The notes beneath the pieces were generated by a model that saw nothing but the letters and a program-made list of their open reading frames with translations, had not been told where the DNA came from and ran no database searches. Source: an uncultured Mollicutes bacterium (GTDB lineage Bacteria > Bacillota_I > Bacilli_A > RF39 > UBA660). From it: a DNA stretch of 64,000 bases. Made by a program: the position numbers and the translations under genes. Below, piece after piece: positions 1 to 17,108 of the stretch; positions within the stretch are counted from its first letter, which is position 1, and each line of letters opens with the position of its first letter. Where the stretch lies: contig CANTCS010000001.1 of NCBI GenBank assembly GCA_947652375.1, forward strand, positions 132,976 through 196,975, given 5' to 3'.

Positions 1-218
1 ACCATTTTTATAATAGATAATATAGTAACTATCATTTTATTTAAATTTGCTAATTTAATATGGAAAGTTAATCTAGCTTTCTTTATATACTATAGTTATT
101 TTATATCTATTACAATATGTATACTAATATTGTTTATTACTTTATACCTGATCCATAAAATTAAAAATACAAAAATATTAAGTCAATTATATACAAATTA
201 ATAGTATTTAACTTATAA

Positions 219-357: not shown

Positions 358-1383
358 CTAATAATTCATCTTAAAAGAAGTTACAGCATACCACATTCCA
401 TTTACTTCATATACGCTTACCGCCATTGCAACATTCTGTTCTCTAAGCATTGTTGCATTATGAGATGGACTATTCTTCCAAGCCGTAATAAAATCAGAGC
501 CTATTCCACCATAACCAATATTTTCACCAAATCCATATCCTGCACCATCATGAGAATAATTTATTGATATCTCCTTAGATCTTCTATCAGCTTCTGATTG
601 AGTTTCAGAAGTATTTGGTAGTACAGACAAGCCATTTTCTTTTCTATATATATTTATCTGATTGGCAAAGGAATTAGAAATATCTTGACGATATTTAGGA
701 GAAGTAGCAGTGTTGTTATTAGTTATATTGTTAGATGGTTTAGATGATGGGGTTGTTGTCGATTTTGAATTATTTTTAGCTGGTTTCTTTTCTGAAACTT
801 TTGATTGCTCTTCTGTTTTCTTTTTAATTTTTAATATAAAATTCTTTGAAGTTATATTATTGTTTTCATCTTCAGCTACAACTTTTAATTTGTATTCTCC
901 AACTATTTTAAGATTATATTCTCCTTCTATTAAAACTTTTACTTTGGTTAAGTCTTTTGCTTCAAAATAAGTAGTTAAATCTAACTTATCTTCTGTTTCT
1001 TCAATTTCTATAGTATCTTTAAATGAAGAAAATTCTGGTGCAATAGTATCTTTTACTTTTATTACAAAATCAATTTTTTTCTTTTTGTAACTAATAGTTA
1101 TTTTATACTCACCTACTGGAACTAACTCTAATTCATCCATAACAAATAAATCATTATCCTTCTTTAATGATTCTGAAGATAGTTTATAATCTTTTATATT
1201 CTTAGTAGCATCAGTATCTTTTAAATAATTAGATACATCAGAACTAATTTTTTCTCCTAATTCATAAACGAATTCTTCTTTTTTTAATTCTATTTTATAT
1301 GTATTTTTATACACAATAAATAATCCTACTAAAAATATAATTAGTATTATAATAGGTATTACTATCTTTAAGATACGCTTCAT
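358..1383 (-). CDS. Secreted/membrane-anchored CAP (SCP/PR-1, YkwD-like) domain protein with N-terminal TM and Ig-like/Thr-Ser-Asn-rich linker
   Basis: 341-aa ORF. N-terminal hydrophobic segment. C-terminal motif GYGFGENIGYGG...AWKNSPSHNATML...VYEVNGMWYAVTSF, typical of CAP/YkwD domains. RBS GGAGGAG upstream. Confidence 0.7.
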   Translation of the reverse strand: MKRILKIVIPIIILIIFLVGLFIVYKNTYKIELKKEEFVYELGEKISSDVSNYLKDTDATKNIKDYKLSSESLKKDNDLFVMDELELVPVGEYKITISYKKKKIDFVIKVKDTIAPEFSSFKDTIEIEETEDKLDLTTYFEAKDLTKVKVLIEGEYNLKIVGEYKLKVVAEDENNNITSKNFILKIKKKTEEQSKVSEKKPAKNNSKSTTTPSSKPSNNITNNNTATSPKYRQDISNSFANQINIYRKENGLSVLPNTSETQSEADRRSKEISINYSHDGAGYGFGENIGYGGIGSDFITAWKNSPSHNATMLREQNVAMAVSVYEVNGMWYAVTSFKMNY

Positions 1384-1410: not shown

Positions 1411-1432
1411 TTGTGGTAATAAATTACCACAA
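1411..1432. repeat. Perfect palindrome TTGTGGTAAT-AA-ATTACCACAA. Its right half carries the putative attR core TTACCACAA (1424..1432)
   Basis: The 9-bp core is identical to the last codons plus stop of secA at 7405..7413. Flanks also match (about 15/19). See mobile element. Confidence 0.55.
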
Positions 1433-1445
1433 TATTTAATTCTAT

Positions 1446-1907
1446 TTAATCCAAGTAGAAATGATAAGTTCTTTCATAAATAAATTCCACTTGATTTGAA
1501 TAAACAGCTAAATAGAAATATGCTCTATTTTTATATCTTCTAATTGTTCTTTCTGATATTTCAAGTTTATCAGAAATTTCTCTATCCGTATAGCCGTATA
1601 AACATTTCATTCTTAGAAATTCTCTAATTGTTCTGTCTTCGTTTTGAATTCTAAAAATACTTCTTATATAATTTGCTATCTGATCTTCATTCCAAGATAA
1701 ACTTTTTAACAATCTATCAGATGACGCTGAACCTGTGGAAGCTCCAGAAAATACAACAATACTTGCTGAATTAAAGGTTTTAGTATTTAGTTGCCTTAAC
1801 CTTTTTTCAACTAAAGGTTGATATAATTCACAAATTTCCTTTCCTTTTATGACTGTTTTATCCATATCTATTTTTGATATAATTTCTTTATCAAAAATAT
1901 TAATCAT
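1446..1907 (-). CDS. ArpU-family phage transcriptional regulator (sigma-70 region-4-like HTH)
   Basis: 153 aa. C-terminal ...TIREFLRMKCLYGYTDREISDKLEISERTIRRYKNRA... resembles sigma region 4 / ArpU late-gene activators of Firmicute phages. Start overlaps stop of the upstream csp-like gene. Confidence 0.55.
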   Translation of the reverse strand: MINIFDKEIISKIDMDKTVIKGKEICELYQPLVEKRLRQLNTKTFNSASIVVFSGASTGSASSDRLLKSLSWNEDQIANYIRSIFRIQNEDRTIREFLRMKCLYGYTDREISDKLEISERTIRRYKNRAYFYLAVYSNQVEFIYERTYHFYLD

Positions 1908-2164
1908 TATTCAGAATCCATATTATCTTCTTCTGCATTGGATTCTTCTTCAGTTATTTTACGAACATTTATTGCTTTTTGTTTTTCTTCGTCATAATCA
2001 AAAATTACTGAATCATTCTCATCCAAAGTTTTAAATCCTTTCATTTGGATATCAGAAAAATGTACATATATATCATTTTCTATTTCACTACATGAGAGAA
2101 ATCCATATCCTTTCTCACTACTAAACCACTTAACATTACCTTTCATATTTACTTTTTCTTGCAT
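1907..2164 (-). CDS. Cold-shock-domain protein with acidic C-terminal tail (island cargo)
   Basis: MKGNVKWFSSEKGYGFL...DIYVHFSDIQ... CSD motifs, followed by a D/E-rich tail. RBS AAGGAGA 9 nt upstream of ATG at 2164. Confidence 0.75.
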   Translation of the reverse strand: MQEKVNMKGNVKWFSSEKGYGFLSCSEIENDIYVHFSDIQMKGFKTLDENDSVIFDYDEEKQKAINVRKITEEESNAEEDNMDSE

Positions 2165-2790
2165 ACTTTGCTTTCTCCTTTTCTATTCTTATTAACATCT
2201 GTACTACCTACTGCCAAATCATATAAACTATCAATTCTTTTTATTAAAAAATCAATAGCAAATACTAATAATGCAATAATTACTGCTAAATAGAAACTTC
2301 TCATTAAACTGCCTAACATCACAAAATTATAGGTTAATAGTGAACTTATTGGCAAAAATAATAATCCTTTAGCCATTATTGAAATAATCTTTTTTAAAGA
2401 GTATTTTCTTCTTCTACTAACATATAGAACTACAAACCACGACATAATAAAAGTTATAATGTAAGTATCAAAGACAAATTTTTTAAAAGCGTCTATATTC
2501 ACCAAAGCAACTCCCTCGTTGCAATACTTTAATCTGTTAAATAGATGAAATATAGTATTTGTAGATAAACATAAACAATATAGAATAAATACTAATAATA
2601 AAATATTCAATATTACTTTTAAAATTAATGATAACTTATGATAATTACGCATTCGCTTATTATTGCCTTCATTACACCAATAATTTTCTGAACTACTACT
2701 AAACAAATCTTTATAAAACTGCTTTACCTTTGCTTTAATATTTGTTCCTCCCTCTTTAAATCTCCAATGATACGGATAAAGCTTCATCAA
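2149..2790 (-). CDS. Hypothetical integral membrane protein (about 4 TM) with cytoplasmic N-terminus
   Basis: 213-aa ORF with several hydrophobic stretches. Overlaps the csp-like start by 16 nt and the MazF-like stop, so it is translationally coupled within an operon. Confidence 0.5.
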   Translation of the reverse strand: MMKLYPYHWRFKEGGTNIKAKVKQFYKDLFSSSSENYWCNEGNNKRMRNYHKLSLILKVILNILLLVFILYCLCLSTNTIFHLFNRLKYCNEGVALVNIDAFKKFVFDTYIITFIMSWFVVLYVSRRRKYSLKKIISIMAKGLLFLPISSLLTYNFVMLGSLMRSFYLAVIIALLVFAIDFLIKRIDSLYDLAVGSTDVNKNRKGESKVCKKK

Positions 2791-3079
2791 CTTTTTTCAT
2801 AGTTTTTTCATCTAATGTTTTAATGTAAGAAATTATTTGCTTCTTTGAAATAGTTAAAATACATTCACACAAAGCCATTTGATATGGTGTTATTACAACA
2901 TGTACAGGCATATTAGTCTTTTTAATTTTTGTTGTTAATGGTACAACAATTAGTGTTGGCGAAAAAGTATTACCCTGATTGTTTTGAACAATTAAACAAG
3001 GTCTTATTCCGTTTTGAACATGATCATAGGAATCATTTAATTCAGCTAAAAATATATCTCCTTTTTTAAAGTTTTTCAT
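2756..3079 (-). CDS. mazF: MazF/PemK-family mRNA interferase toxin
   Basis: GDIFLAELNDSYDHVQNGIRPCLIVQNNQGNTFSPTLIVVPLTTKIKKTNMPVHVVI matches the MazF/PemK fold signature. Likely start is MKNFKKGD at 3079 (the ORF extends to 3103). Confidence 0.75.
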   Translation of the reverse strand: MKNFKKGDIFLAELNDSYDHVQNGIRPCLIVQNNQGNTFSPTLIVVPLTTKIKKTNMPVHVVITPYQMALCECILTISKKQIISYIKTLDEKTMKKVDEALSVSLEI

Positions 3080-3339
3080 ATATAATAACTTTTGACCACA
3101 CATTCTACCTCTAAGATATAATAAGCATCTATTGGATATTTTACTCTTCGCTTATATCTATATTTATTTTCATATATTATTTTAAGAATACATGAATACC
3201 CTTCTTGTTCCAAAACTTCTATAATTTTTTCTCTACCGATTTTCTTGACTATATCTCTGCCACAACAACAATTGCCATATTTTCTTAAATGATGCAATAT
3301 CCAATCAGGGATTTTAATATTTTCTTTTGAAAACTTCAT
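3076..3339 (-). CDS. Small Cys/His-rich protein immediately upstream of and overlapping mazF. Putative non-canonical antitoxin
   Basis: 87 aa, HHLRKYGNCCCGR motif. No resemblance to MazE/PemI (AbrB or RHH). Position and overlap are typical of antitoxin-toxin pairs. Confidence 0.4.
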   Translation of the reverse strand: MKFSKENIKIPDWILHHLRKYGNCCCGRDIVKKIGREKIIEVLEQEGYSCILKIIYENKYRYKRRVKYPIDAYYILEVECVVKSYYI

Positions 3340-3560
3340 TTTGTTCCCCTCTCGAATCTTTTTAAACTATCCTTATTAAATCTAATTCAAATTGACTACC
3401 AACTTCAAAGAATTTTATTTCATCATCTCCATCAAATAAATAATAAACTTTGTTATTTATTACTTTAATGATAGTTAGAAAATACCCATGGTTATCAGAT
3501 AAGGTATTATATATTTTATACCTTTCCTTCTCTTTATAGTTTATTTAATCACCTCTTTTA

Positions 3561-3697
3561 GTTCATGATAGTAAACTTTTCTAATTAAAAAATAAAATAT
3601 ATTACTACATCTAAATGTGAAAAGTTTATAATACCTTTTCAAAGCACAATAACATCTACCACCTCCACTAAATCTAAAGTAGTTCACGATAGTAAAC
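3561..3697. repeat. Two direct copies of a 16-19 bp motif (TA)GTTCAYGATAGTAAAC(T) at 3561..3576 and 3682..3697
   Basis: Read directly. Related inverted copies occur at 4438..4453 and 4481..4496. Operator- or iteron-like. Confidence 0.6.
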
Positions 3698-3815
3698 TCT
3701 TTATACTAAAATAATAACCTTTTATTTAATAAAAGTCAATAACTTATTTTTATTTTTTATTTTTATAAACAAAACTGTATAGAATATCTATACAGTTCGT
3801 ACACACTTCAGTATT

Positions 3816-4118
3816 TTATGAATTTAATATTTTATCTAAAACATCTAAGGTTTTATCTAAGGATTCTTCATCTTCAACTGAAATTGTACTCACAGTACCA
3901 ATTATTTCTAATAGTCTTTCTAATTTTACTGCTGAAGAATTACAAAATAAAAGTTCTTTTTTCGTTTTATTGTAATCAGTTTCAATTTCCAAAATCTTTT
4001 TTACAACTTCTTCCATTACTTCATAAGGTATATCTTTCTTTTCTTCAAGATACTTTTCAATTTTTACTCCTAAAACTACTTCTACTTCTTTTACTGCATT
4101 TCTTTCTTCTTTAGTCAT
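3816..4118 (-). CDS. Hypothetical helical protein (island)
   Basis: The ORF runs to 4184 but the likely start is MTKEERNAV at 4118 (RBS AAGGAA about 10 nt upstream). It sits 3 nt after the stop of the upstream 64-aa ORF. Confidence 0.4.
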   Translation of the reverse strand: MTKEERNAVKEVEVVLGVKIEKYLEEKKDIPYEVMEEVVKKILEIETDYNKTKKELLFCNSSAVKLERLLEIIGTVSTISVEDEESLDKTLDVLDKILNS

Positions 4119-4120
4119 TT

Positions 4121-4315
4121 TTATTTTTCCTTTCCAATTGGTACTGCTTCTTGTGATGCCTTCTCCCTCAACTGCTTTAGACATACTTCCAAGATCTGAA
4201 TCACAGATTCATCATCCAATTGGCTTGTTGTACTTAGTTCTATATTTTTATTTGCAACTAAAATTTTGATACAACTCATCTGTTTTGAAGACTGCCCTTT
4301 ATTCAAAAATTTCAC
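4121..4315 (-). CDS. Hypothetical small protein (island)
   Basis: 64-aa ORF, first gene of a leftward operon divergent from the XRE-like gene. Confidence 0.3.
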   Translation of the reverse strand: MKFLNKGQSSKQMSCIKILVANKNIELSTTSQLDDESVIQILEVCLKQLREKASQEAVPIGKEK

Positions 4316-4437
4316 CTGCCTTTCTAATAGTCAGGATGAAAGTATCACCCATCTTACTATTTTCATTGCCTTACTCCTCCACTTCAAATATATAGTTTAA
4401 TACTATATAAAATATTTTATCATTTATTTCTTTTTGT

Positions 4438-4496
4438 GTCTACTATCGTGAACTTATTTTGGCTTTTATTGATTAATTAGGTTCACAATGGTAGAC
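4438..4496. promoter_or_regulatory. Inverted repeat GTCTACTATCGTGAAC (27 bp) GTTCACAATGGTAGAC in the divergent promoter region. Putative operator
   Basis: Read in sequence. The half-sites relate to the direct repeats at 3561/3682. Located between divergently transcribed genes (4315 minus, 4555 plus). Confidence 0.5.
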
Positions 4497-4554
4497 AATA
4501 TTATAAAAAAATAGTACAATGTTGATGATGTGATTATAACGAAAGGAGATAAAA

Positions 4555-4956
4555 ATGACTAAAGAAGAAGCCATCAGGTTTATAATTTCCGATTATTGTA
4601 AAATTCATAAAATTACGCCTACACAATTTGCAAGAGAAAGTGGGATTAGTAAAGCCTATATGAGTAAGATTATGAAAAAAAAGTATGGCAAAGTTGGTAT
4701 TTCCATGACTTATACTGAATTAATAGCTAAAGGAATGAAAATGAATATGATTGATTTTCAAAAATTAATTGAACAGTATAAGGAAAAAAATAATAGCACC
4801 AATTATAACCACGATACTGATATTCTTATAGCTCAAATTAATAATGAACTATATAATTTATCAAAAGAAGACTTAGAAGTAATACATAGTATTATAGTGA
4901 ATTCTGATTCTGGAAAATTAGATATTCTACATAATGTTTTGAAAAATATGAAATAA
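4555..4956 (+). CDS. XRE-family HTH transcriptional regulator (phage repressor/cro-like)
   Basis: ITPTQFARESGISKAYMSKIM helix-turn-helix. RBS GGAGA upstream of ATG 4555. Confidence 0.55.
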   Translation: MTKEEAIRFIISDYCKIHKITPTQFARESGISKAYMSKIMKKKYGKVGISMTYTELIAKGMKMNMIDFQKLIEQYKEKNNSTNYNHDTDILIAQINNELYNLSKEDLEVIHSIIVNSDSGKLDILHNVLKNMK

Positions 4957-4972
4957 CATATTTTTTTATTTT

Positions 4973-5836
4973 TTAATAATCTCTATCATAAAAGTCGTTT
5001 TCTTCTTCAAATTCAAGCTCCTTAAACCAACCAGTTTCTGGATCTATTTCCAATTTATCATTTATTCTTAATCTTTCAATGCAATTATTAATTGCTCCTT
5101 GAAAAAATCCAAACTTATTCTCTACTTTGTTACCATTTTCATCAATAAAATGTTTTGAAACTACTATTGGCACAATATAATGTGTCATTTTAACTAGATC
5201 CTTATATGAGTGTCCTTGCTGCAATAAATTTTCAAAATAATTGTCGTAATTGTATATATCAGTATCATATTCATCTATATAATTTTTTTCAATTAAATAA
5301 AGAGTTAAAGGATTTAATTCATCTAAATCGACGAATGGCAAATTTTCTTTAACTCTTTTAACTATTTGTTCTTTAATATTTTGTTTATTAGTATTTATTT
5401 GGGTATCCTTTTCGGCATCTCCTTCAACGGTATTCCCTTTTTGGGCATCTGGATTATCCTGTTGTTTTTCAACCTCTAATGGAATTTCACGAATAATATA
5501 TTCGTACTTATAATATCCTTTATCTCCTCTTGTTTGTTGTATTTCTAAATAGCCATGTTCTTTAAGTTCATTAAGTATAGTTCTTATGGCTTTAATATTT
5601 TCTTTACTAACTGCTACTAACCCTTTCATAGAGTAATCCCAATCTTCAGGCAAACTTAACATGAATGATAGTAGACCTTTTGCTTTATAAGAAAGATTTC
5701 TATCTTGCAAATGATAATTGCTCATAACTGTATAATTCTTTTGTTTTTTTATTTTAAATACTGCCATTACAATCACCCTTTCTTTTATTTTTAAACATTT
5801 AAAAAAGAACTGAATCTTGTCCAGTTCTATATTCAT
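4973..5836 (-). CDS. Replication initiator protein A N-terminal (RepA_N)-type winged-helix initiator
   Basis: FKIKKQKNYTVMSNYHLQDRNLSYKAKGLLSFMLSLPEDWDYSMKGL...ELKEHGYLEIQQTRGDKGYYKYEYII matches RepA_N of Firmicute plasmids, ICEs and phages. Confidence 0.6.
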   Translation of the reverse strand: MNIELDKIQFFFKCLKIKERVIVMAVFKIKKQKNYTVMSNYHLQDRNLSYKAKGLLSFMLSLPEDWDYSMKGLVAVSKENIKAIRTILNELKEHGYLEIQQTRGDKGYYKYEYIIREIPLEVEKQQDNPDAQKGNTVEGDAEKDTQINTNKQNIKEQIVKRVKENLPFVDLDELNPLTLYLIEKNYIDEYDTDIYNYDNYFENLLQQGHSYKDLVKMTHYIVPIVVSKHFIDENGNKVENKFGFFQGAINNCIERLRINDKLEIDPETGWFKELEFEEENDFYDRDY

Positions 5837-5852
5837 ATAATAACAGTTGTTA

Positions 5853-7166
5853 TCACGAAATTGATTCTGTAGGTTTCCTTGCTATAGCAATTTCTAAAGA
5901 GTCTGCATAATCTTCAAATTTACTAACTACTTCTTCTTCCATTTGAATTGTAACTCTTACATAAATGTTATAAGTTGTTTCAATCGTACTATGTCCTAAT
6001 CTTTTTGAAACAGCTTTTATATCTGCTCCTGCTTCAATTAGTCTAGTTGCATGTGTATCTCTAAAATCGTGAAATCTGCAAGGTATTCCTAACTCATAGT
6101 GAATTACTTTAAATGGATATTTACAAGTATTATTTCCCTCAAATGCTCCATTATTTTTTATAAATACTAAGTGTACTTCAGGTAAAGCAACATCAATTTC
6201 TGCAATACAATCAACTATTTTAGTTTCTGGTTTATTTGTATATGGATTTAAAACTTCTTTAGCATAATGTTTGATGTATGAATCTCCATATTGTTCTTTA
6301 TATATTTCTTGCTCTTCTTTAAATTCTTTTAAAGCAGCTGCTAATGTATCTCCAATATCAATTGTTCTGTAACTAGCTTTTGTTTTACACGGACCAAAAT
6401 ACCAAACAGTAGTCCTTTGCCCTTTTATAAGTCTGTGCTTTGTTCCACCCACTTGATTTTTTTCAACAATATTTTTATTTACTGTTAATTTCTTGTTTTC
6501 TAAATCAATGTCTTCCCATGTCAATCCAAATACTTCTGAAATTCTAAGCCCAGTATAATATGCCGTTAAAAAAGCATAATATATACAATGACTATTTTTA
6601 AATCTATTAAAAATCATTTCTATTTCTTCTGGTGTAAAAATATGAGCTGGATCTTCATCTGGACCATCATATCTTGGTAATCTTATTTTCAATGCTGGAT
6701 TATGCTTAATGAATCCGACACCATCTTCAGCATAAGCGAATGATGATTTTAAAACTTTCATTATACTTTTTAAAAAGTTTTTTGATACTCCTTTATTCAA
6801 AAATACATCTGTAAGAAAGTCATTTAATGTAGCTGTATCTATTTGCGATAACCTATAAAATCCTAGTTTTGGTTTAACATGATTTTTAATAATGCTTTTA
6901 TATGCCTCTATCGTATTATACCTTAGATTAATTTGACAATAGTTAGCCATCCAATAATCCAAAAAATCTGCATATGAACATGTATTAGGAGAAAATTTTT
7001 TACCTGTATTCATATATTCATTAAATGCTTTCATACCAGCAACATAAGCATCCTGCTTTGTCTTGAAACCTGACTTGTTAATAAACTTTCTAACTCCACC
7101 TTGTGGAGCTATTTCAAATCTATATTGATATAGATTTCCTCTTTTTGTTACATTCACTTTTCCCAT
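5853..7166 (-). CDS. int: Tyrosine-type site-specific recombinase / phage integrase
   Basis: C-terminal HDFRDTHATRLIEAGADIKAVSKRLGHSTIETTYNIYVRV (H-x-x-R...Y catalytic motifs). N-terminal arm-binding-like domain (GKVNVTKRGNLYQYRFE...). Confidence 0.85.
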   Translation of the reverse strand: MGKVNVTKRGNLYQYRFEIAPQGGVRKFINKSGFKTKQDAYVAGMKAFNEYMNTGKKFSPNTCSYADFLDYWMANYCQINLRYNTIEAYKSIIKNHVKPKLGFYRLSQIDTATLNDFLTDVFLNKGVSKNFLKSIMKVLKSSFAYAEDGVGFIKHNPALKIRLPRYDGPDEDPAHIFTPEEIEMIFNRFKNSHCIYYAFLTAYYTGLRISEVFGLTWEDIDLENKKLTVNKNIVEKNQVGGTKHRLIKGQRTTVWYFGPCKTKASYRTIDIGDTLAAALKEFKEEQEIYKEQYGDSYIKHYAKEVLNPYTNKPETKIVDCIAEIDVALPEVHLVFIKNNGAFEGNNTCKYPFKVIHYELGIPCRFHDFRDTHATRLIEAGADIKAVSKRLGHSTIETTYNIYVRVTIQMEEEVVSKFEDYADSLEIAIARKPTESIS

Positions 7167-7196
7167 AACTTCCTCCTCTAAATTTCTTTAGAGAAC

Positions 7197-7220
7197 GAAA
7201 AAATCAGCACGAATGCTGAT
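7197..7220 (-). terminator. Rho-independent terminator (stem ATCAGCA/TGCTGAT, then T-run on the minus strand) between secA and int
   Basis: cgaaaaaatcagcacgaatgctgat read in sequence. Would terminate secA read-through before int. Confidence 0.55.
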
Positions 7221-7274
7221 TATTGTGAATTTGTGTTCATTGAAAAATCCCTTGTTTTATAAGGCTTAGAGCAA

Positions 7275-7326
7275 TTGTGTGCATTAATTTTTTATTTTAC
7301 GCACACAAATTGCACACAAGTGTGCA
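7275..7326. promoter_or_regulatory. Clustered inverted repeats TTGTGTGC-N16-GCACACAA and TGCACAC-AA-GTGTGCA upstream of int
   Basis: Read directly. GC-containing palindromes in an otherwise AT-rich spacer inside the element near attL. Candidate int promoter operator or recombination-directionality / arm-type sites. Confidence 0.4.
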
Positions 7327-7400
7327 TTTTTAACTGTTTTTTGCCTATTTTTTTGACTTTTTTTACTACTGCACTACTTCACAAACCCTTATAAATTAAG

Positions 7401-9896
7401 TTATTTACCACAACATTGTTTATACTTCTTGCCTGAGCCGCAGCTGCAAATTTGATTTCGACCTATTTTTTGACTTCTTTTTGGTTGTTTTTTAGTAGTT
7501 TTTTCTTCTTTATCATTTGTTATTATTTTTTTTGTTGTTTCTTTTCTTTCTATATTTTGTCTTATTTCTGCTTTAAGTAAGAATATTGAAACATCTTTGT
7601 CTATTTTTTGTAGCATAGAATCAAATAAATCAAATCCTTCCATAGTATAAGCTCTTAAAGGATCTTCTTGAGCATAACCACGTAGGTGAATTCCTTCTCT
7701 TAAATGAGACATAGTGTTAATATGTTCCATCCAGTAATTATCTAGTACTTGTAATGTTATAACTTTTTCGAATTCTTGAACTATTTCTTCAGGTAAATCT
7801 TTAATTTTCTCTTCATATTCTTCTATAACTTTTTTAGATAAAAAGTCAATTAACTCGTTTGCTTCTTTATCTTTAATATCTTTTTCCGATAAATCAATTT
7901 TTAATAAGTTTTCATTAACAAACTCTGTTATCTCTCTAATATCATCCTCTGTTAAATAGTTTTCTGGTGGAATATGAGAATTAACTAAATCTTCTATATG
8001 ATGTCTATAGGTAGTTAAAACCATTTCATGTATTGATGTGTTATCTAAAATCTTATTTCTTTTTTCATAGATAATTTCTCTTTGATTATTCATAACATCA
8101 TCATATTGTAGTAAGCTTTTACGAATATCAAAATTATTTCCTTCTACTCTTTTTTGCGCTGTTCCAATTGATTTAGTGAATGTTTTACTTTGAATTGCTT
8201 GTTCTCCTAAACCCATTGACTCCATCATTGCACCAATTCTATCTGATCCAAAACGAACCATTAAGTCATCTTTCATCGAAACAAAGAATTGAGTATATCC
8301 TGGATCTCCTTGACGTCCTGAACGTCCACGCAATTGATTATCAATACGACGTGACTCATGACGCTCAGTTCCAACCACACACAAACCACCTAGTTCTTTT
8401 ATTTCATCTGATAATTTAATGTCTGTACCACGACCTGCCATATTTGTAGCAATAGTTACTGATTTACTTTGACCTATTTTTGAAATAATTTCTGCTTCTC
8501 TTTCATGATTTTTTGCATTTAAAACTTCATGAGGAATATGTGCTTGTTTTAACAATCTGCTAATTAGTTCACTTGTTTCAATAGCAATTGTTCCAATTAA
8601 TACAGGTTGCCCTTCATTATATCTTTCTTTTACAAACTCTATTACTGCTTTATATTTTGCTTCTTTTGTAGCATAAACTAAATCAGGAGCATCGATTCTA
8701 ATAACATCTTTATTAGTTGGAATTTCTATAACATACATATTATAAATGTTTCTAAATTCTTCTTCTTCAGTCTTTGCAGTACCTGTCATACCTGATAATT
8801 TTTTATACATTCTAAATAAATTTTGAAATGTAATTGTTGCTAAAGTTTTTGTTTCTTGATTAATATTTACGCCTTCTTTGGCTTCGATAGCTTGATGTAG
8901 TCCATCAGAATATGCTCTACCTTTCATTAAGCGTCCAGTAAATTGATCAACTATTACTATTTCGCCATCTTGAACAACATAATCTACATCATTGTTCATT
9001 GCGTAATTAGCACGAAGAGCTTGGTTTATAAAATGAAGTAATGTTGCATTATCTACATCATAAAGATTTTTTATTTTAAACATTTCTTCGGCTTTATCTG
9101 CTCCTAATTCTGTTAAGTTAACACTCTTTGTTTTTTCATCAAATATAAAATCTTTTTCAATAGTTAAACTTTTAGCATATTTATCTGCACTAGTATAAAG
9201 ATTTACATTAGACATTTCTCCACCAGATATAATTAAAGGTGTTCTTGCTTCATCAATTAAAACTGAATCAACTTCATCTATGATTGCAAAGTTTAGAGGT
9301 CTTTGAACTCTTTCTTCTTTTTTAACTACCATATTATCTCTTAAATAATCAAATCCTATTTCATTATTTGTAGAATATAATATATCACAATTGTACGCAG
9401 TTTGTTTTTCTTCTGATGTCATATCTCTTGTATTTACTCCTACTGTTAAACCTAGGAAACGATGAATTCCACCCATCCATTCAGCATCACGACTAGCTAG
9501 ATATTCATTTACAGTTATAATATGAACTCCATCTCCACTTAAGGCATTTAAATATGCAGGAAGAACAGATGTTAAGGTTTTTCCTTCTCCTGTTTTCATT
9601 TCTGAGATATTTCCATAATGTATTGCAAGTCCACCTAAAATTTGGACAAAATAATGTTTTTCTCCTATAACACGAAATGATGCTTCTCTTGCTGTTGCAA
9701 AAGCTTCTACTAAGATATCTTCTAAAGTTTCTCCTTTACTTAATCTCTCTTTAAATTCGTTTGTTTTATTTTGTAGTTCTGTATCAGTTAATTTTGAATA
9801 TTCTTCTTCTAATTCAAGAATTTGATTTGCTAGAACATTAAATCTTCTTAATTCTTTATACTCATGATCGAATAATTTTTTTAATATATTCATCAT
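7401..9896 (-). CDS. secA: Preprotein translocase ATPase SecA
   Basis: 831 aa. DEAD-like motor motifs. C-terminal zinc-binding CSCGSGKKYKQCCGK. Confidence 0.97.
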   Translation of the reverse strand: MMNILKKLFDHEYKELRRFNVLANQILELEEEYSKLTDTELQNKTNEFKERLSKGETLEDILVEAFATAREASFRVIGEKHYFVQILGGLAIHYGNISEMKTGEGKTLTSVLPAYLNALSGDGVHIITVNEYLASRDAEWMGGIHRFLGLTVGVNTRDMTSEEKQTAYNCDILYSTNNEIGFDYLRDNMVVKKEERVQRPLNFAIIDEVDSVLIDEARTPLIISGGEMSNVNLYTSADKYAKSLTIEKDFIFDEKTKSVNLTELGADKAEEMFKIKNLYDVDNATLLHFINQALRANYAMNNDVDYVVQDGEIVIVDQFTGRLMKGRAYSDGLHQAIEAKEGVNINQETKTLATITFQNLFRMYKKLSGMTGTAKTEEEEFRNIYNMYVIEIPTNKDVIRIDAPDLVYATKEAKYKAVIEFVKERYNEGQPVLIGTIAIETSELISRLLKQAHIPHEVLNAKNHEREAEIISKIGQSKSVTIATNMAGRGTDIKLSDEIKELGGLCVVGTERHESRRIDNQLRGRSGRQGDPGYTQFFVSMKDDLMVRFGSDRIGAMMESMGLGEQAIQSKTFTKSIGTAQKRVEGNNFDIRKSLLQYDDVMNNQREIIYEKRNKILDNTSIHEMVLTTYRHHIEDLVNSHIPPENYLTEDDIREITEFVNENLLKIDLSEKDIKDKEANELIDFLSKKVIEEYEEKIKDLPEEIVQEFEKVITLQVLDNYWMEHINTMSHLREGIHLRGYAQEDPLRAYTMEGFDLFDSMLQKIDKDVSIFLLKAEIRQNIERKETTKKIITNDKEEKTTKKQPKRSQKIGRNQICSCGSGKKYKQCCGK
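7405..7413. repeat. Putative attL core TTACCACAA overlapping the secA stop codon
   Basis: Identical 9-mer at 1424..1432 with similar flanks. Confidence 0.55.
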
Positions 9897-10629: not shown

Positions 10630-11163
10630 TTATTCTGACTCAATTAAACCATAATTTCCATCTGTTCTTTTATATACTACAGTTGGTTTATTAGTTTCAC
10701 TATCTTTATACATATAAAATTCATGATTTAGTAATTCCATTTGAAGAATTGCTTCTTCTTCATTCATTGGTTTTACTTCGATTGTTTTTCTTTTAATAAT
10801 TTTATGTTCGTCTTCAATTTCTTCTTTAAAATCAATTTTTTCAAAATTAAAGTCATAACTAGCTTTATTTTGTTTTGCCATTAATTTTGTTTTGTTTTTT
10901 CTTACTTGTCTTTCTAATTTATCAATTGTTTTATCAACAGCTGCATAAAAATCTTCTTTTGTTTCTTCTGATCTTAGAATAAATGATTTTAAAGGTATGG
11001 TAATTTCTACTGTTTGTTCATGATTTTTTACTTTTACTATGACATTTGCACGAACGGCATCACTTTTTTCTAGATATTTTTCTAACTTTCCTAGCTTTTC
11101 ATTTATATAATCTTTCATAGCATCAGTAATTTGCATTTTATCTCCTCTGATGATAATTTCCAT
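10630..11163 (-). CDS. hpf: Ribosome hibernation promoting factor, long form
   Basis: MEIIIRGDKMQITDAMKDYINEKL... aligns with the long-HPF N-terminus. C-terminal dimerisation domain present. Confidence 0.9.
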   Translation of the reverse strand: MEIIIRGDKMQITDAMKDYINEKLGKLEKYLEKSDAVRANVIVKVKNHEQTVEITIPLKSFILRSEETKEDFYAAVDKTIDKLERQVRKNKTKLMAKQNKASYDFNFEKIDFKEEIEDEHKIIKRKTIEVKPMNEEEAILQMELLNHEFYMYKDSETNKPTVVYKRTDGNYGLIESE

Positions 11164-17034: not shown

Positions 17035-17108
17035 ACTATTATTCTCCTTCCGCCATGACAAAGTTTTTGTCATAGTAATTAAATCGCGTAACTAATATAT
17101 CAAATTTT

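What the first reader, a model, noticed from the sequence alone, without database searches (positions are those of the whole stretch)
1411..7420. Small (~6 kb) integrase-bearing element inserted into the 3' end of secA, with candidate att direct repeats
A tyrosine integrase (5853..7166) sits next to the secA stop. The 9-mer TTACCACAA covers the last secA codons (C-C-G-K-stop) at 7405..7413. It recurs at 1424..1432 with similar flanks (about 15/19) inside a perfect 22-bp palindrome. Everything between is phage/plasmid-like: RepA_N initiator, XRE regulator, MazF module, csp-like, ArpU-like. That content is absent from the usual hpf-secA neighbourhood. The size and content suggest a satellite / PICI-like or degenerate prophage rather than a full phage (no capsid, terminase or lysis genes). 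It carries its own terminator (7197..7220), which would restore secA termination after insertion. secA as an integration target is uncommon.
Basis: partly seen in the sequence, partly recalled or inferred. Interest (0 to 1): 0.8.

Follow-up and report, generated by a model that had tools for sequence, protein, structure and literature searches.

The report
Left end of large secA-integrated island
The integrase-bearing stretch next to secA is real mobile DNA, but it is the first 7.4 kb of a much larger (at least 27 kb, probably about 60 kb) conjugative-type island that runs off the window. It is not a self-contained 6-kb satellite, and the proposed 9-base repeat is not its border.

Summary
The sequence features are there: an intact tyrosine integrase, the 9-mer, a hairpin and a terminator. 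The secA-side junction lies inside secA at about 7438-7446. The element supplies secA's last 13 codons plus stop (7401-7439, the SEC-C zinc-finger motif).

The proposed left border (hairpin 1411-1432) is an internal, conserved intergenic hairpin. In every related contig read, the sigma-like gene is followed by the CAP gene. Identity of 99.9% or more then continues for at least 27 kb past the junction. This holds in hosts whose SecA proteins are only 60-68% identical. The window differs from one such copy by 1 SNP in 7442 nt.

Beyond the window lie an ABC transporter, lysin-like proteins with a holin, and a SpaA adhesin. Close relatives carry a methylase, a primase, a VirD4-type coupling protein, ArdC, a relaxase, a sortase and a second xis-int pair at the far end. 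A 1.6-kb decayed derivative keeps both ends between two SEC-C cores. It shows that the integrase-437 arm and the integrase-426 arm belong to one element.

Verdict: left-terminal recombination, regulation and maintenance module of a roughly 60-kb ICE-like island from uncultured gut Bacilli. A new member of a known kind, using a target site I did not find reported.

The parts
7438..7446 (-). Host/element junction (crossover zone) inside secA, at the Cys-Gly codons of the SEC-C motif
   Evidence: Host-specific sequence ends at ...TG(T/C). All copies share the identical GGCTCAGGC... from there on. In attR sites the host-type sequence starts right after ...TG(T/C)GG.
7401..7439 (-). Element-supplied secA tail: GGCTCAGGCAAGAAGTATAAACAATGTTGTGGTAAATAA, encoding GSGKKYKQCCGK-stop. 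This is the att core and the only copy in the window.
   Evidence: Identical in every copy of the window-type element examined, across about six different host-side flanks (three SecA groups only 60-68% identical). The same 39-mer heads most variant attL sites, with L076 the exception. Pfam SEC-C matches SecA residues 813-831.
7167..7400 (-). P' arm of the att site, with four TTGTGTGCA / AATGCACAC motifs (7277-7328) as candidate arm-type integrase sites
   Evidence: Repeats found. The 12-mer ATTGTGTGCATT is shared with the far-end P arm of L068. The arm is conserved in variant elements.
7202..7221 (-). Intrinsic terminator carried by the element, about 180 nt after the secA stop
   Evidence: 8-bp stem followed by TTTTCGTTCT. 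Conserved in L036.
5853..7166 (-). Tyrosine integrase 'int437' (arm-binding, SAM-like and catalytic domains)
   Evidence: A 72% homologue also sits directly after secA in L071.
4973..5836 (-). Replication-initiator-like / DnaD-like HTH_36 protein (287 aa; called as 264 aa in most contigs)
   Evidence: Pfam HTH_36 1.7e-7. PHROG 4707/428 replication initiation, 1e-20.
4555..4956 (+). Divergently transcribed XRE-type regulator (133 aa)
   Evidence: Weak HTH_26 match. The exact protein is listed in 224 blocks of the collection; the 20 contigs read all show the same context.
4104..4569 (.). Divergent control region bounded by a perfect 21-nt inverted repeat. The repeat covers the RBS and first five codons (MTKEE) of both divergent genes.
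   Evidence: (I6). Conserved in variants. No flipped orientation was seen.
3816..4184 (-). Small protein of unknown function (122 or 100 aa)
   Evidence: No family match.
2756..3339 (-). Putative type II toxin-antitoxin pair: an 87-aa ORF (3076-3339) overlapping MazF/PemK (2756-3103)
   Evidence: PemK 6.7e-25. PHROG MazF-like 1e-23. The 87-aa partner has no family match.
2149..2790 (-). Membrane protein of 212/213 aa, unknown function
1907..2164 (-). Cold-shock-domain protein
   Evidence: CSD 5.6e-21.
1446..1907 (-). Sigma-region-4 / ArpU-like putative transcriptional activator
   Evidence: PHROG_248 1e-7. Sigma70_r4_2 and TIGR01637 matches are below their cut-offs.
1411..1432 (.). Internal conserved hairpin or operator (TTGTGGTAAT-AA-ATTACCACAA) between the activator gene and the CAP gene. 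It is not an element border.
   Evidence: The arms are invariant and only the loop varies across diverged variants. Identity between hosts runs straight through it.
358..1383 (-). CAP-domain membrane or secreted protein; cargo of the same island
   Evidence: Pfam CAP 4e-5. The exact protein is listed in 112 blocks of the collection; all 20 contigs read are linked to the same neighbours.
1..201 (+). 3' end of the next island gene (356-aa membrane protein, followed outside the window by FtsX and an ABC ATPase). The island continues off the window.
   Evidence: Window 1 maps to L003 11383. Genes at L003 11183-14138.

Best explanation
Window 1..~7442 is the left end of a large integrative, probably conjugative, element (ICE) of uncultured low-GC gut Bacilli. 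The element sits in the 3' end of secA.

Integration. It integrates by tyrosine-recombinase site-specific recombination. The exchange occurs at the Cys-Gly codons of the SEC-C zinc-finger motif. The element's P' arm carries a replacement for the last 13 codons of secA, the stop codon and a terminator. SecA therefore stays intact. The displaced native tail and terminator end up at the far junction (attR), outside the window.

It is the element's recombination, regulation and maintenance module:
- integrase int437;
- a replication-initiator-like protein;
- a divergent XRE-type regulator;
- a MazF toxin-antitoxin pair for stabilisation;
- a cold-shock-domain protein;
- a sigma-like activator that probably switches on downstream genes.

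Downstream content. Shown in identical copies: a CAP protein, an ABC transporter, two lysin-like proteins with an M23 endolysin and a holin, and a SpaA adhesin. Shown in 74-96% relatives and in a deletion derivative: a methylase, a primase, a VirD4-type coupling protein, ArdC, a MobA/VirD2 relaxase, HU, a sortase, and an excisionase with a second integrase (int426) next to attR.

Shown: the junction, continuity for at least 27 kb, near-identity across distant hosts, the attR structure in relatives, and both arms in one decayed derivative.

Inferred: total size of about 55-65 kb, presence of a full mating-pore module, which integrase acts, and actual excision and transfer.
For: - Junction: megablast identity to the other-host loci starts at window 7442-7469 (7735 for L004, whose secA tail partly aligns) and runs to position 1 at 98.9-99.99%. 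The flank alignment shows host-specific sequence up to ...TG(T/C) and then an identical core plus P' arm.
- Continuity: L003 vs L004/L005/L006 are 99.96-99.99% identical from the core to the locus ends. L018 vs L019 are 99.93% identical over a further 20.4 kb, so the element spans at least 27 kb.
- Hosts differ: SecA is 60-68% identical between the window, L003 and L004 hosts. The element differs by 1 SNP in 7442 nt.
- Linkage: the sigma-like gene is followed by CAP in all 21 contigs read. The same holds in the 92%-holin variant in all 24 contigs read. The hairpin is conserved inside the element.
- Conjugation-type content: SpaA, Flg_new, N6_N4 methylase and DnaG/Toprim primase in L038. The same order followed by a T4SS-DNA_transf/TraG coupling protein in L062, colinear with L038.
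- Far end: L021 is the window-type left part fused to a 5'-truncated ardC (residues 128-315 of 315), then relaxase-HU-sortase-xis-int426.
- attR: L068 (int 99% to int426) reads int, P arm, SEC-C core. L044 reads xis-int, P arm, displaced secA tail, hairpin terminator, prfB and ftsEX.
- Both ends in one unit: L077 reads hpf-secA-core-[P'437 arm, int437 codons 1-63, scrambled fragments, int426-type P arm]-core-native terminator-hisS.
- Size: three contigs of 55,128, 60,572 and 60,577 nt begin exactly at the core.
- Not phage: no match in INPHARED or IMG/VR.
Against: - The far junction of this particular copy was never read, because all look-ups were exhausted. The link to int426 rests on one deletion-derivative contig (L021) and on the decayed derivative.
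- No VirB4 or other mating-pore gene was seen. About 15 kb of the middle is unread. The coupling protein was seen only in a relative with 75% SpaA identity.
- No empty attB in a close relative and no circular attP junction was recovered.
- L005 (int422 P arm - core - int437) is ambiguous between a tandem array and a junction.
- Two integrases at opposite ends is unusual for an ICE. Which one works is unknown.
- Holin and endolysin genes plus an ArpU-like regulator give the island a phage flavour.
Confidence: 0.8

Rival explanations
1. One reading: an autonomous ~6-kb satellite or PICI-like element (1411..7420), bounded by TTACCACAA direct repeats. It would excise on its own, with the CAP gene being host DNA.
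For: - The 9-mer and the 15/19 flank similarity exist.
- The 9-mer equals the last bases of the real core (TGTTGTGGTAA).
- The module has an int-rep-regulator-TA layout typical of small integrative elements.
Against: - Identity between unrelated hosts runs through 1411-1432 and at least 20 kb further.
- The module is never seen without CAP, and CAP is never seen without the module, in about 60 contigs read, including 92-94% variants.
- The hairpin is conserved as an internal feature.
- Sharing a 9-mer has p of about 0.04.
- The real core is 39 nt, and only one copy is in the window.
- There are no relatives in viral collections.
Confidence: 0.03
2. Accretion origin: the int437 module was once an independent small integrative (mobilizable) element. 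It landed in the secA att site next to an int426 ICE. The internal att site then decayed to the 1411-1432 hairpin, and the two now move as one composite.
For: - There are two integrases only 43-45% identical, one at each end.
- A 72% int437 homologue sits next to secA in another element.
- Tandem arrays at this site are common (L005, L073, L074, L078).
- Tandem accretion and composite transfer are documented for ICE/IME/CIME (PMC5704250).
- The hairpin shares 14/18 bases with the core's 3' end. This is my own hand alignment, made from the reverse-strand sequences printed.
Against: - No full core lies between the module and CAP.
- The module and the rest diverge in step, at 93-96%.
- The P arm on the int426 side and the P' arm on the int437 side share the ATTGTGTGCATT motif, as expected for the two arms of one attP.
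- No stand-alone module was found.
Confidence: 0.2
3. A mobilizable or merely integrative genomic island without its own mating pore. It would be an IME or cargo island moved in trans by other conjugative elements.
For: - No VirB4 or other pore gene was seen in any locus fetched.
- The deletion derivative L021 keeps only relaxase and integrase.
- The 1.6-kb derivative has spread without any genes at all.
Against: - A VirD4-type coupling protein follows the primase in the colinear relative L062.
- About 15 kb remain unread between the coupling protein and ArdC, enough for a Firmicute-type T4SS.
- The sortase, SpaA adhesin, primase, ArdC and methylase form a typical conjugative set.
Confidence: 0.15
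4. A degenerate prophage: int, rep and an ArpU-like late activator, plus a lysis cassette, with the structural genes lost.
For: - Phage_holin_4_1, an M23/CW_7/LysM endolysin, and a weak ArpU/phage-activator match.
Against: - No capsid, portal, terminase or tail gene in the 27 kb of this element, or in about 33 kb of the 93-96% variant.
- No DNA or protein relatives in INPHARED or IMG/VR above 39%.
- A relaxase, coupling protein, ArdC and sortase are present in the family.
Confidence: 0.04

Closest known systems
Firmicute ICEs that integrate by a tyrosine integrase into the 3' end of a housekeeping gene (e.g. ICESt3 at fda, ICESa2603 at rplL, the Tn5252 superfamily). Recalled from memory and from PMC4701971 as listed.
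   Same: - Site-specific insertion at the 3' end of an essential gene, with the gene's end regenerated by the element.
- An xis-int module at one end.
- A MobA/VirD2-type relaxase, a VirD4-type coupling protein, a primase, ArdC, a methylase, adhesin plus sortase, and TA stabilisation.
   Different: - The target is the SEC-C-motif coding tail of secA. It is not mentioned in the two Streptococcus ICE/IME surveys (0 occurrences of secA) and was not found.
- A second integrase with its own regulator and rep module sits at the opposite end.
- The relaxase is at most 29% identical to any PLSDB plasmid relaxase.
- The hosts are uncultured gut Bacilli.
ICEBs1-type left-end module (int next to an immunity repressor at attL). 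Recalled from memory.
   Same: Integrase, XRE-type regulator and divergent control region sit at the att-proximal end of a conjugative element.
   Different: - Here int is transcribed away from attL.
- A Rep-like protein, a MazF TA pair, a cold-shock-domain protein and a sigma-like activator follow.
- There is no ImmA-type protease match.
Tandem accretion of ICE/IME/CIME at one att site (ICESt1/CIME; S. agalactiae tRNA-Lys islands). PMC5704250.
   Same: - The same site holds tandem arrays (L005, L073, L074, L078).
- It also holds gene-less att-flanked derivatives (L076-L081), like CIMEs.
   Different: In the window copy no internal att site survives between the int437 module and the rest.
PICI / phage satellites
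   Same: An int-regulator-rep layout in about 6 kb, with no structural genes.
   Different: - It is not bounded at 6 kb.
- It has no packaging or capsid-remodelling genes.
- It has no viral-database relatives.
- It is part of a conjugative-type island.

Membership tests
Integrative and conjugative element (ICE) | Site-specific integrase and flanking att sites (attL and attR sharing a core) | tested here: inconclusive
   attL is defined in the window (7401-7446). attR of this copy lies outside the window and was not reached. attR with the same core type was seen in L068, L044 and L077.
Integrative and conjugative element (ICE) | Relaxase (and oriT) for DNA processing | tested here: met
   PF03432 relaxase, 3e-27, in L021. 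The left part of L021 is 99.9% the window-type element. It is also present in L044 and L065. It is not inside the window.
Integrative and conjugative element (ICE) | Type IV coupling protein and mating-pore (VirB4-type ATPase etc.) | tested here: inconclusive
   A T4SS-DNA_transf/TraG-D_C coupling protein was seen only in the colinear relative L062. No VirB4 was seen. About 15 kb of the middle is unread.
Integrative and conjugative element (ICE) | Horizontal spread between hosts | tested here: met
   1 SNP in 7442 nt between copies in hosts with 60% SecA identity. Identity of 99.9% over at least 27 kb.
Integrative and conjugative element (ICE) | Excision to a circular form and conjugative transfer | not testable with these tools
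   Needs read-level attP/attB detection or mating experiments.
PICI / phage satellite | Discrete ~10-15 kb (here claimed 6 kb) unit bounded by att repeats | tested here: not met
   There is no border at 1411-1432. The element continues for at least 20 kb beyond.
PICI / phage satellite | Packaging or capsid-redirection genes and relatives among phage-associated sequences | tested here: not met
   No such families were found. There are no relatives in IMG/VR or INPHARED.
Prophage | Terminase, portal, capsid and tail genes | tested here: not met
   None were found in the 27 kb of this element read, or in about 33 kb of the 93-96% variant. The middle ~15 kb is unread.
Tyrosine recombinase (Tn916/Tn1549-lambda type integrase) | Arm-binding N-domain, SAM-like core-binding domain, and catalytic domain with R..HxxR..Y | tested here: met
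   Pfam Arm-DNA-bind_4 (weak), SAM_3 and Phage_integrase. The alignment to 3nkh/6emy shows GLRISE, HDFRDTH and GHS..NIY.
MazEF type II toxin-antitoxin | PemK/MazF toxin with an upstream overlapping small antitoxin | tested here: inconclusive
   The toxin is met (PemK 6.7e-25). The overlapping 87-aa upstream ORF has no family match.
   Pfam gives only HTH_36. PHROGs give generic replication-initiator/DnaD-like families.
   19.8 bits against a cut-off of 43.1. Sigma-70 region 4 matches are weak.

The most novel reading that the evidence does not exclude
This would be a previously undescribed family of ~60-kb conjugative islands of uncultured human- and animal-gut Bacilli. Its attachment site is the coding sequence of the SEC-C zinc-finger motif. 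That is usually the tail of the essential secA gene, and once an 85-aa SEC-C ORF.

The attP would be flanked by two different tyrosine integrases, xis-int426 on one arm and int437 on the other. The family is now crossing between hosts with only about 60% SecA identity with essentially no sequence change. It leaves behind gene-less att-flanked 1.6-kb derivatives that themselves occur in several hosts.
Probability: 0.5. Interest if true: 0.5.

Novelty: new member of a known kind. Interest (0 to 1): 0.38.

Why it matters
The finding itself is a routine correction. What looked like a tiny satellite is the visible end of a big island cut by the window edge.

The underlying biology is of moderate interest to mobile-element specialists:
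- A conserved 39-nt protein-motif coding sequence at the end of an essential gene serves as a broad-host landing pad.
- The site is a hotspot, with tandem arrays, at least two integrase lineages and decayed remnants.
- Essentially identical copies sit in hosts with 60-68% SecA identity, which documents very recent gene flow among uncultured gut Bacilli.
- The cargo (adhesin, ABC transporter, lysin-like proteins with a holin) could affect competition in the gut.
- For annotation pipelines, integrases next to secA in these genomes mark the edge of a ~60-kb island.

Tried and rejected
- I looked for a second copy of the att core in the window and in the 27 kb downstream. There is none, so the far end lies further away.
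- The phage (INPHARED) and IMG/VR searches with island DNA, the holin and int437 found no close relatives. I rejected the prophage and satellite readings.
- The GTDB scan with the 26-nt core gave 8 loci with one match per genome, in fixed 8-kb blocks. That defined attL and attR types but not this copy's far end.
- I walked outward with the holin, SpaA and integrase look-ups.
- I tried to find an empty attB through the window's exact SecA and Hpf proteins. Only short contigs came back.
- I tested whether L005 (int422 arm - core - int437) is the circular junction. The 84-kb contig is longer than the ~60 kb inferred for the element from contig lengths, so a tandem array is more likely. This remains unresolved.
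- I tested whether the 21-nt inverted repeat around 4104-4569 marks an invertible switch. All 21 loci have the same orientation.
- Base composition does not separate the island from the host.
- Literature searches for secA as an integration site found nothing relevant.

Full report
**1. What is in the window**

- The region is about 25% G+C, like the rest of the window, so composition gives no border.
- On the minus strand the order is hpf (10630-11163), a 163-aa ORF, then secA (7401-9896, 831 aa with a SEC-C motif at residues 813-831).
- A 234-nt spacer follows, with a hairpin and T-run terminator at 7221-7202.
- Then comes a 437-aa tyrosine integrase at 5853-7166.
- Next are a replication-initiator-like HTH_36 protein, a divergent XRE-type gene on the plus strand, small ORFs and an 87-aa ORF overlapping a MazF/PemK toxin.
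- These are followed by a membrane protein, a cold-shock-domain protein, a sigma-region-4/ArpU-like protein, the hairpin at 1411-1432 and a CAP-domain protein at 358-1383.
- On the plus strand, 1-201 holds the tail of another gene.

- The 9-mer occurs three times against 0.59 expected. Two of those hits are the arms of the single hairpin.
- The 15/19 flank match is real.
- Two regions of this size and composition share a direct 9-mer about 4% of the time.
- 'RepA_N' and 'ArpU' are not supported at family thresholds.

**2. Where the element really starts and stops**

I looked up the exact CAP, sigma-like, XRE and holin proteins in public assemblies. This returned dozens of contigs.

- Aligned to the window, their identity begins at or just upstream of the core. 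Megablast starts at window 7442-7469, or at 7735 for L004, whose secA tail partly aligns. It runs to position 1 at 98.9-99.99%.
- Upstream of the core the secA genes are too different for megablast to align.
- The flank alignment shows host-specific sequence up to ...TG(T/C). It is followed in every copy by GGCTCAGGCAAGAAGTATAAACAATGTTGTGGTAAATAA and an identical spacer.
- The SecA proteins of the window, L003 and L004 hosts are only 60-68% identical. The window and L003 copies of the element differ by one base in 7442.

On the other side, identity does not stop at the hairpin or at the CAP gene.
- L003, L004, L005 and L006 remain 99.96-99.99% identical to the end of the 21-kb loci.
- L018 and L019 extend this to about 27 kb from the junction at 99.93%.
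- No second core copy occurs in that span or in the window.
- The hairpin at 1411-1432 is conserved, with invariant arms and a variable loop, in variants that are 91-94% identical overall.
- The sigma-like gene is followed by the CAP gene in every contig read, including 24 contigs of a variant lineage.

So the element runs off the left end of the window, and the 6 kb is not a separate unit today.

**3. What the whole element is**

Content past the CAP gene:
- An FtsX/ABC transporter and small secreted proteins.
- A 752-aa protein with PG_binding and Rv2525c-like hydrolase-like domains.
- An M23/CW_7/LysM endolysin and a holin.
- An 810-aa paralogue of the 752-aa protein, and a 1123-aa SpaA-type adhesin.

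In the 93-96% variant L038, the order continues with a Flg_new surface protein, an N6_N4 methylase and a 969-aa DnaG/Toprim primase. The colinear relative L062 adds a VirD4/TraG-type coupling protein.

The contig L021 is 99.9% identical to the window-type element up to a small gene. That gene is truncated at 87 of 158 aa. It is fused there to a 5'-truncated ardC (residues 128-315 of 315). Relaxase, HTH, HU, sortase, an excisionase and a 426-aa integrase follow. This is an internal deletion of one element, and it gives the right-hand end.

A 99% copy of that integrase in L068 is followed by a ~290-nt arm with two ATAGTACAAATAATACTA repeats and then by a SEC-C core. A related element in L044 ends with xis-int, a P arm, a displaced secA tail and a hairpin terminator. 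MCRA, TetR, prfB and ftsEX follow.

The metagenome scan with int437 found a 1.6-kb derivative in at least five host backgrounds (L076-L081).
- In L077 the order is hpf-secA-core-[P' arm, int437 codons 1-63, two inverted fragments of the island, int426-type P arm]-core-native terminator-hisS.
- This places the int437 arm and the int426 arm at the two ends of one element, between two SEC-C cores.
- The two arms also share the 12-mer ATTGTGTGCATT.

Three contigs of 55,128, 60,572 and 60,577 nt begin exactly at the core. This suggests a size of about 55-60 kb. The window-type copy carries roughly 5 kb of additional genes. The size estimate is an inference.

**4. Mechanism**

- In attR sites the sequence becomes host-type immediately after ...TG(T/C)GG. 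For example, L080 reads GGAAGTGGCAAAAAGTAC....
- In attL sites the sequence is host-type up to TG(T/C).
- Strand exchange therefore happens at the Cys-Gly codons, at window ~7438-7446.
- The element supplies GSGKKYKQCCGK-stop and a terminator, so the essential SecA keeps its zinc-binding tail.
- Because the motif is conserved by protein function, the site is available in very different hosts.
- In L036 a 98% int437 copy sits behind an 85-aa ORF that ends in a SEC-C motif instead of behind secA.

Which integrase acts is not known.
- int437 and the int42x lineage are 43-45% identical.
- Both are tied to this site. A 72% int437 homologue follows secA in L071. int422- and P0081-type elements end at the same core.
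- The 6-kb module most likely provides integration, a repressor/activator switch, post-excision replication and TA stabilisation. These functions are inferred from family matches only.

**5. Rivals**

- An accretion origin is possible, with a small int437 element fused to an int426 ICE. It fits what is known about tandem ICE/IME/CIME arrays (PMC5704250). However, no internal core survives, and the two parts diverge in step.
- A non-self-transmissible island cannot be excluded until the unread ~15 kb is seen.
- A degenerate prophage is unlikely. There are no structural genes and no viral relatives, and conjugation-type genes are present.

**6. Comparison and novelty**

- Functionally this is a Firmicute-type ICE that targets the 3' end of a housekeeping gene. 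That is a well-known strategy.
- I did not find secA or the SEC-C motif reported as an att site. The two Streptococcus ICE/IME surveys do not mention secA, and targeted searches gave nothing. That is a limited search.
- The relaxase is at most 29% identical to any PLSDB relaxase.
- The GTDB loci that carry the core are all 'uncultured Bacilli bacterium' MAGs from Hadza human gut, one Brazilian (BRZ) sample of unstated source, and roe deer.
- I classify it as a new member of a known kind. The finding as written is downgraded: right about the insertion site, wrong about size, borders and type.

Noticed in passing
L076-L081 (e.g. L077 9728-11393): A 1.6-kb gene-less derivative flanked by two SEC-C cores. 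It holds the P' arm, int437 codons 1-63, two inverted island fragments and the int426-type P arm. It carries the same internal rearrangement in at least five different secA backgrounds. It looks like a CIME-like non-autonomous element that is itself spreading, or an old insertion.
   Followed up: partly
L005 1-3945 / L057 12612-18405: In one 84-kb contig, the core in front of int437 is preceded by the right end of a different element, not by secA. That end reads HU (with an IS110 transposase gene just outside it), sortase, xis, int422 and a P arm. This is a tandem array at the same site, or less likely a junction of a circular form.
   Followed up: partly
L036 5961-6218: A 98% copy of int437 with the same P' arm lies behind an 85-aa ORF that ends in a SEC-C motif (Pfam 7e-10), rather than behind secA. 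This suggests the motif-coding sequence itself is the target.
   Followed up: partly
window 4104-4124 and 4549-4569: A perfect 21-nt inverted repeat, 424 nt apart, covers the RBS and first five codons (MTKEE) of the divergent XRE gene and the 100-aa gene. It is conserved in 91-94% variants. No inverted orientation was seen in 21 loci, so there is no evidence for an invertible switch. Its function is unexplained.
   Followed up: partly
L018 6167-8425, 9108-10438 and 12137-14569 (outside the window): Two paralogous 752-aa and 810-aa proteins carry PG_binding and Rv2525c-like glycosidase-like domains and are about 81% identical over 1.5 kb. They sit next to an M23/CW_7/LysM endolysin and a holin. 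This may be a holin-dependent export or bacteriolysin cargo rather than phage lysis. The 752-aa copy is absent from the variant lineage.
   Followed up: no
L021 7756-8585: A natural internal deletion fuses a truncated 158-aa gene to a 5'-truncated ardC. It removes the adhesin and the presumed transfer genes but keeps the relaxase and xis-int, giving an IME-like derivative.
   Followed up: yes
window 358-1383: The CAP-domain protein has a weak, sub-threshold match to the SEC10/PgrA surface-exclusion domain (TIGR04320, 20 bits against a cut-off of 70). Not reliable, but notable in a conjugative-element context.
   Followed up: no
window 17044-17075 (-): An Rfam L31-Firmicutes ribosomal-protein leader (36.2 bits, above the gathering score). 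Ordinary host feature.
   Followed up: no
L078 9728, 11355, 12286, 18146: Four SEC-C-type cores lie within 8.5 kb downstream of one secA gene. This is an array of successive remnants at this hotspot.
   Followed up: no
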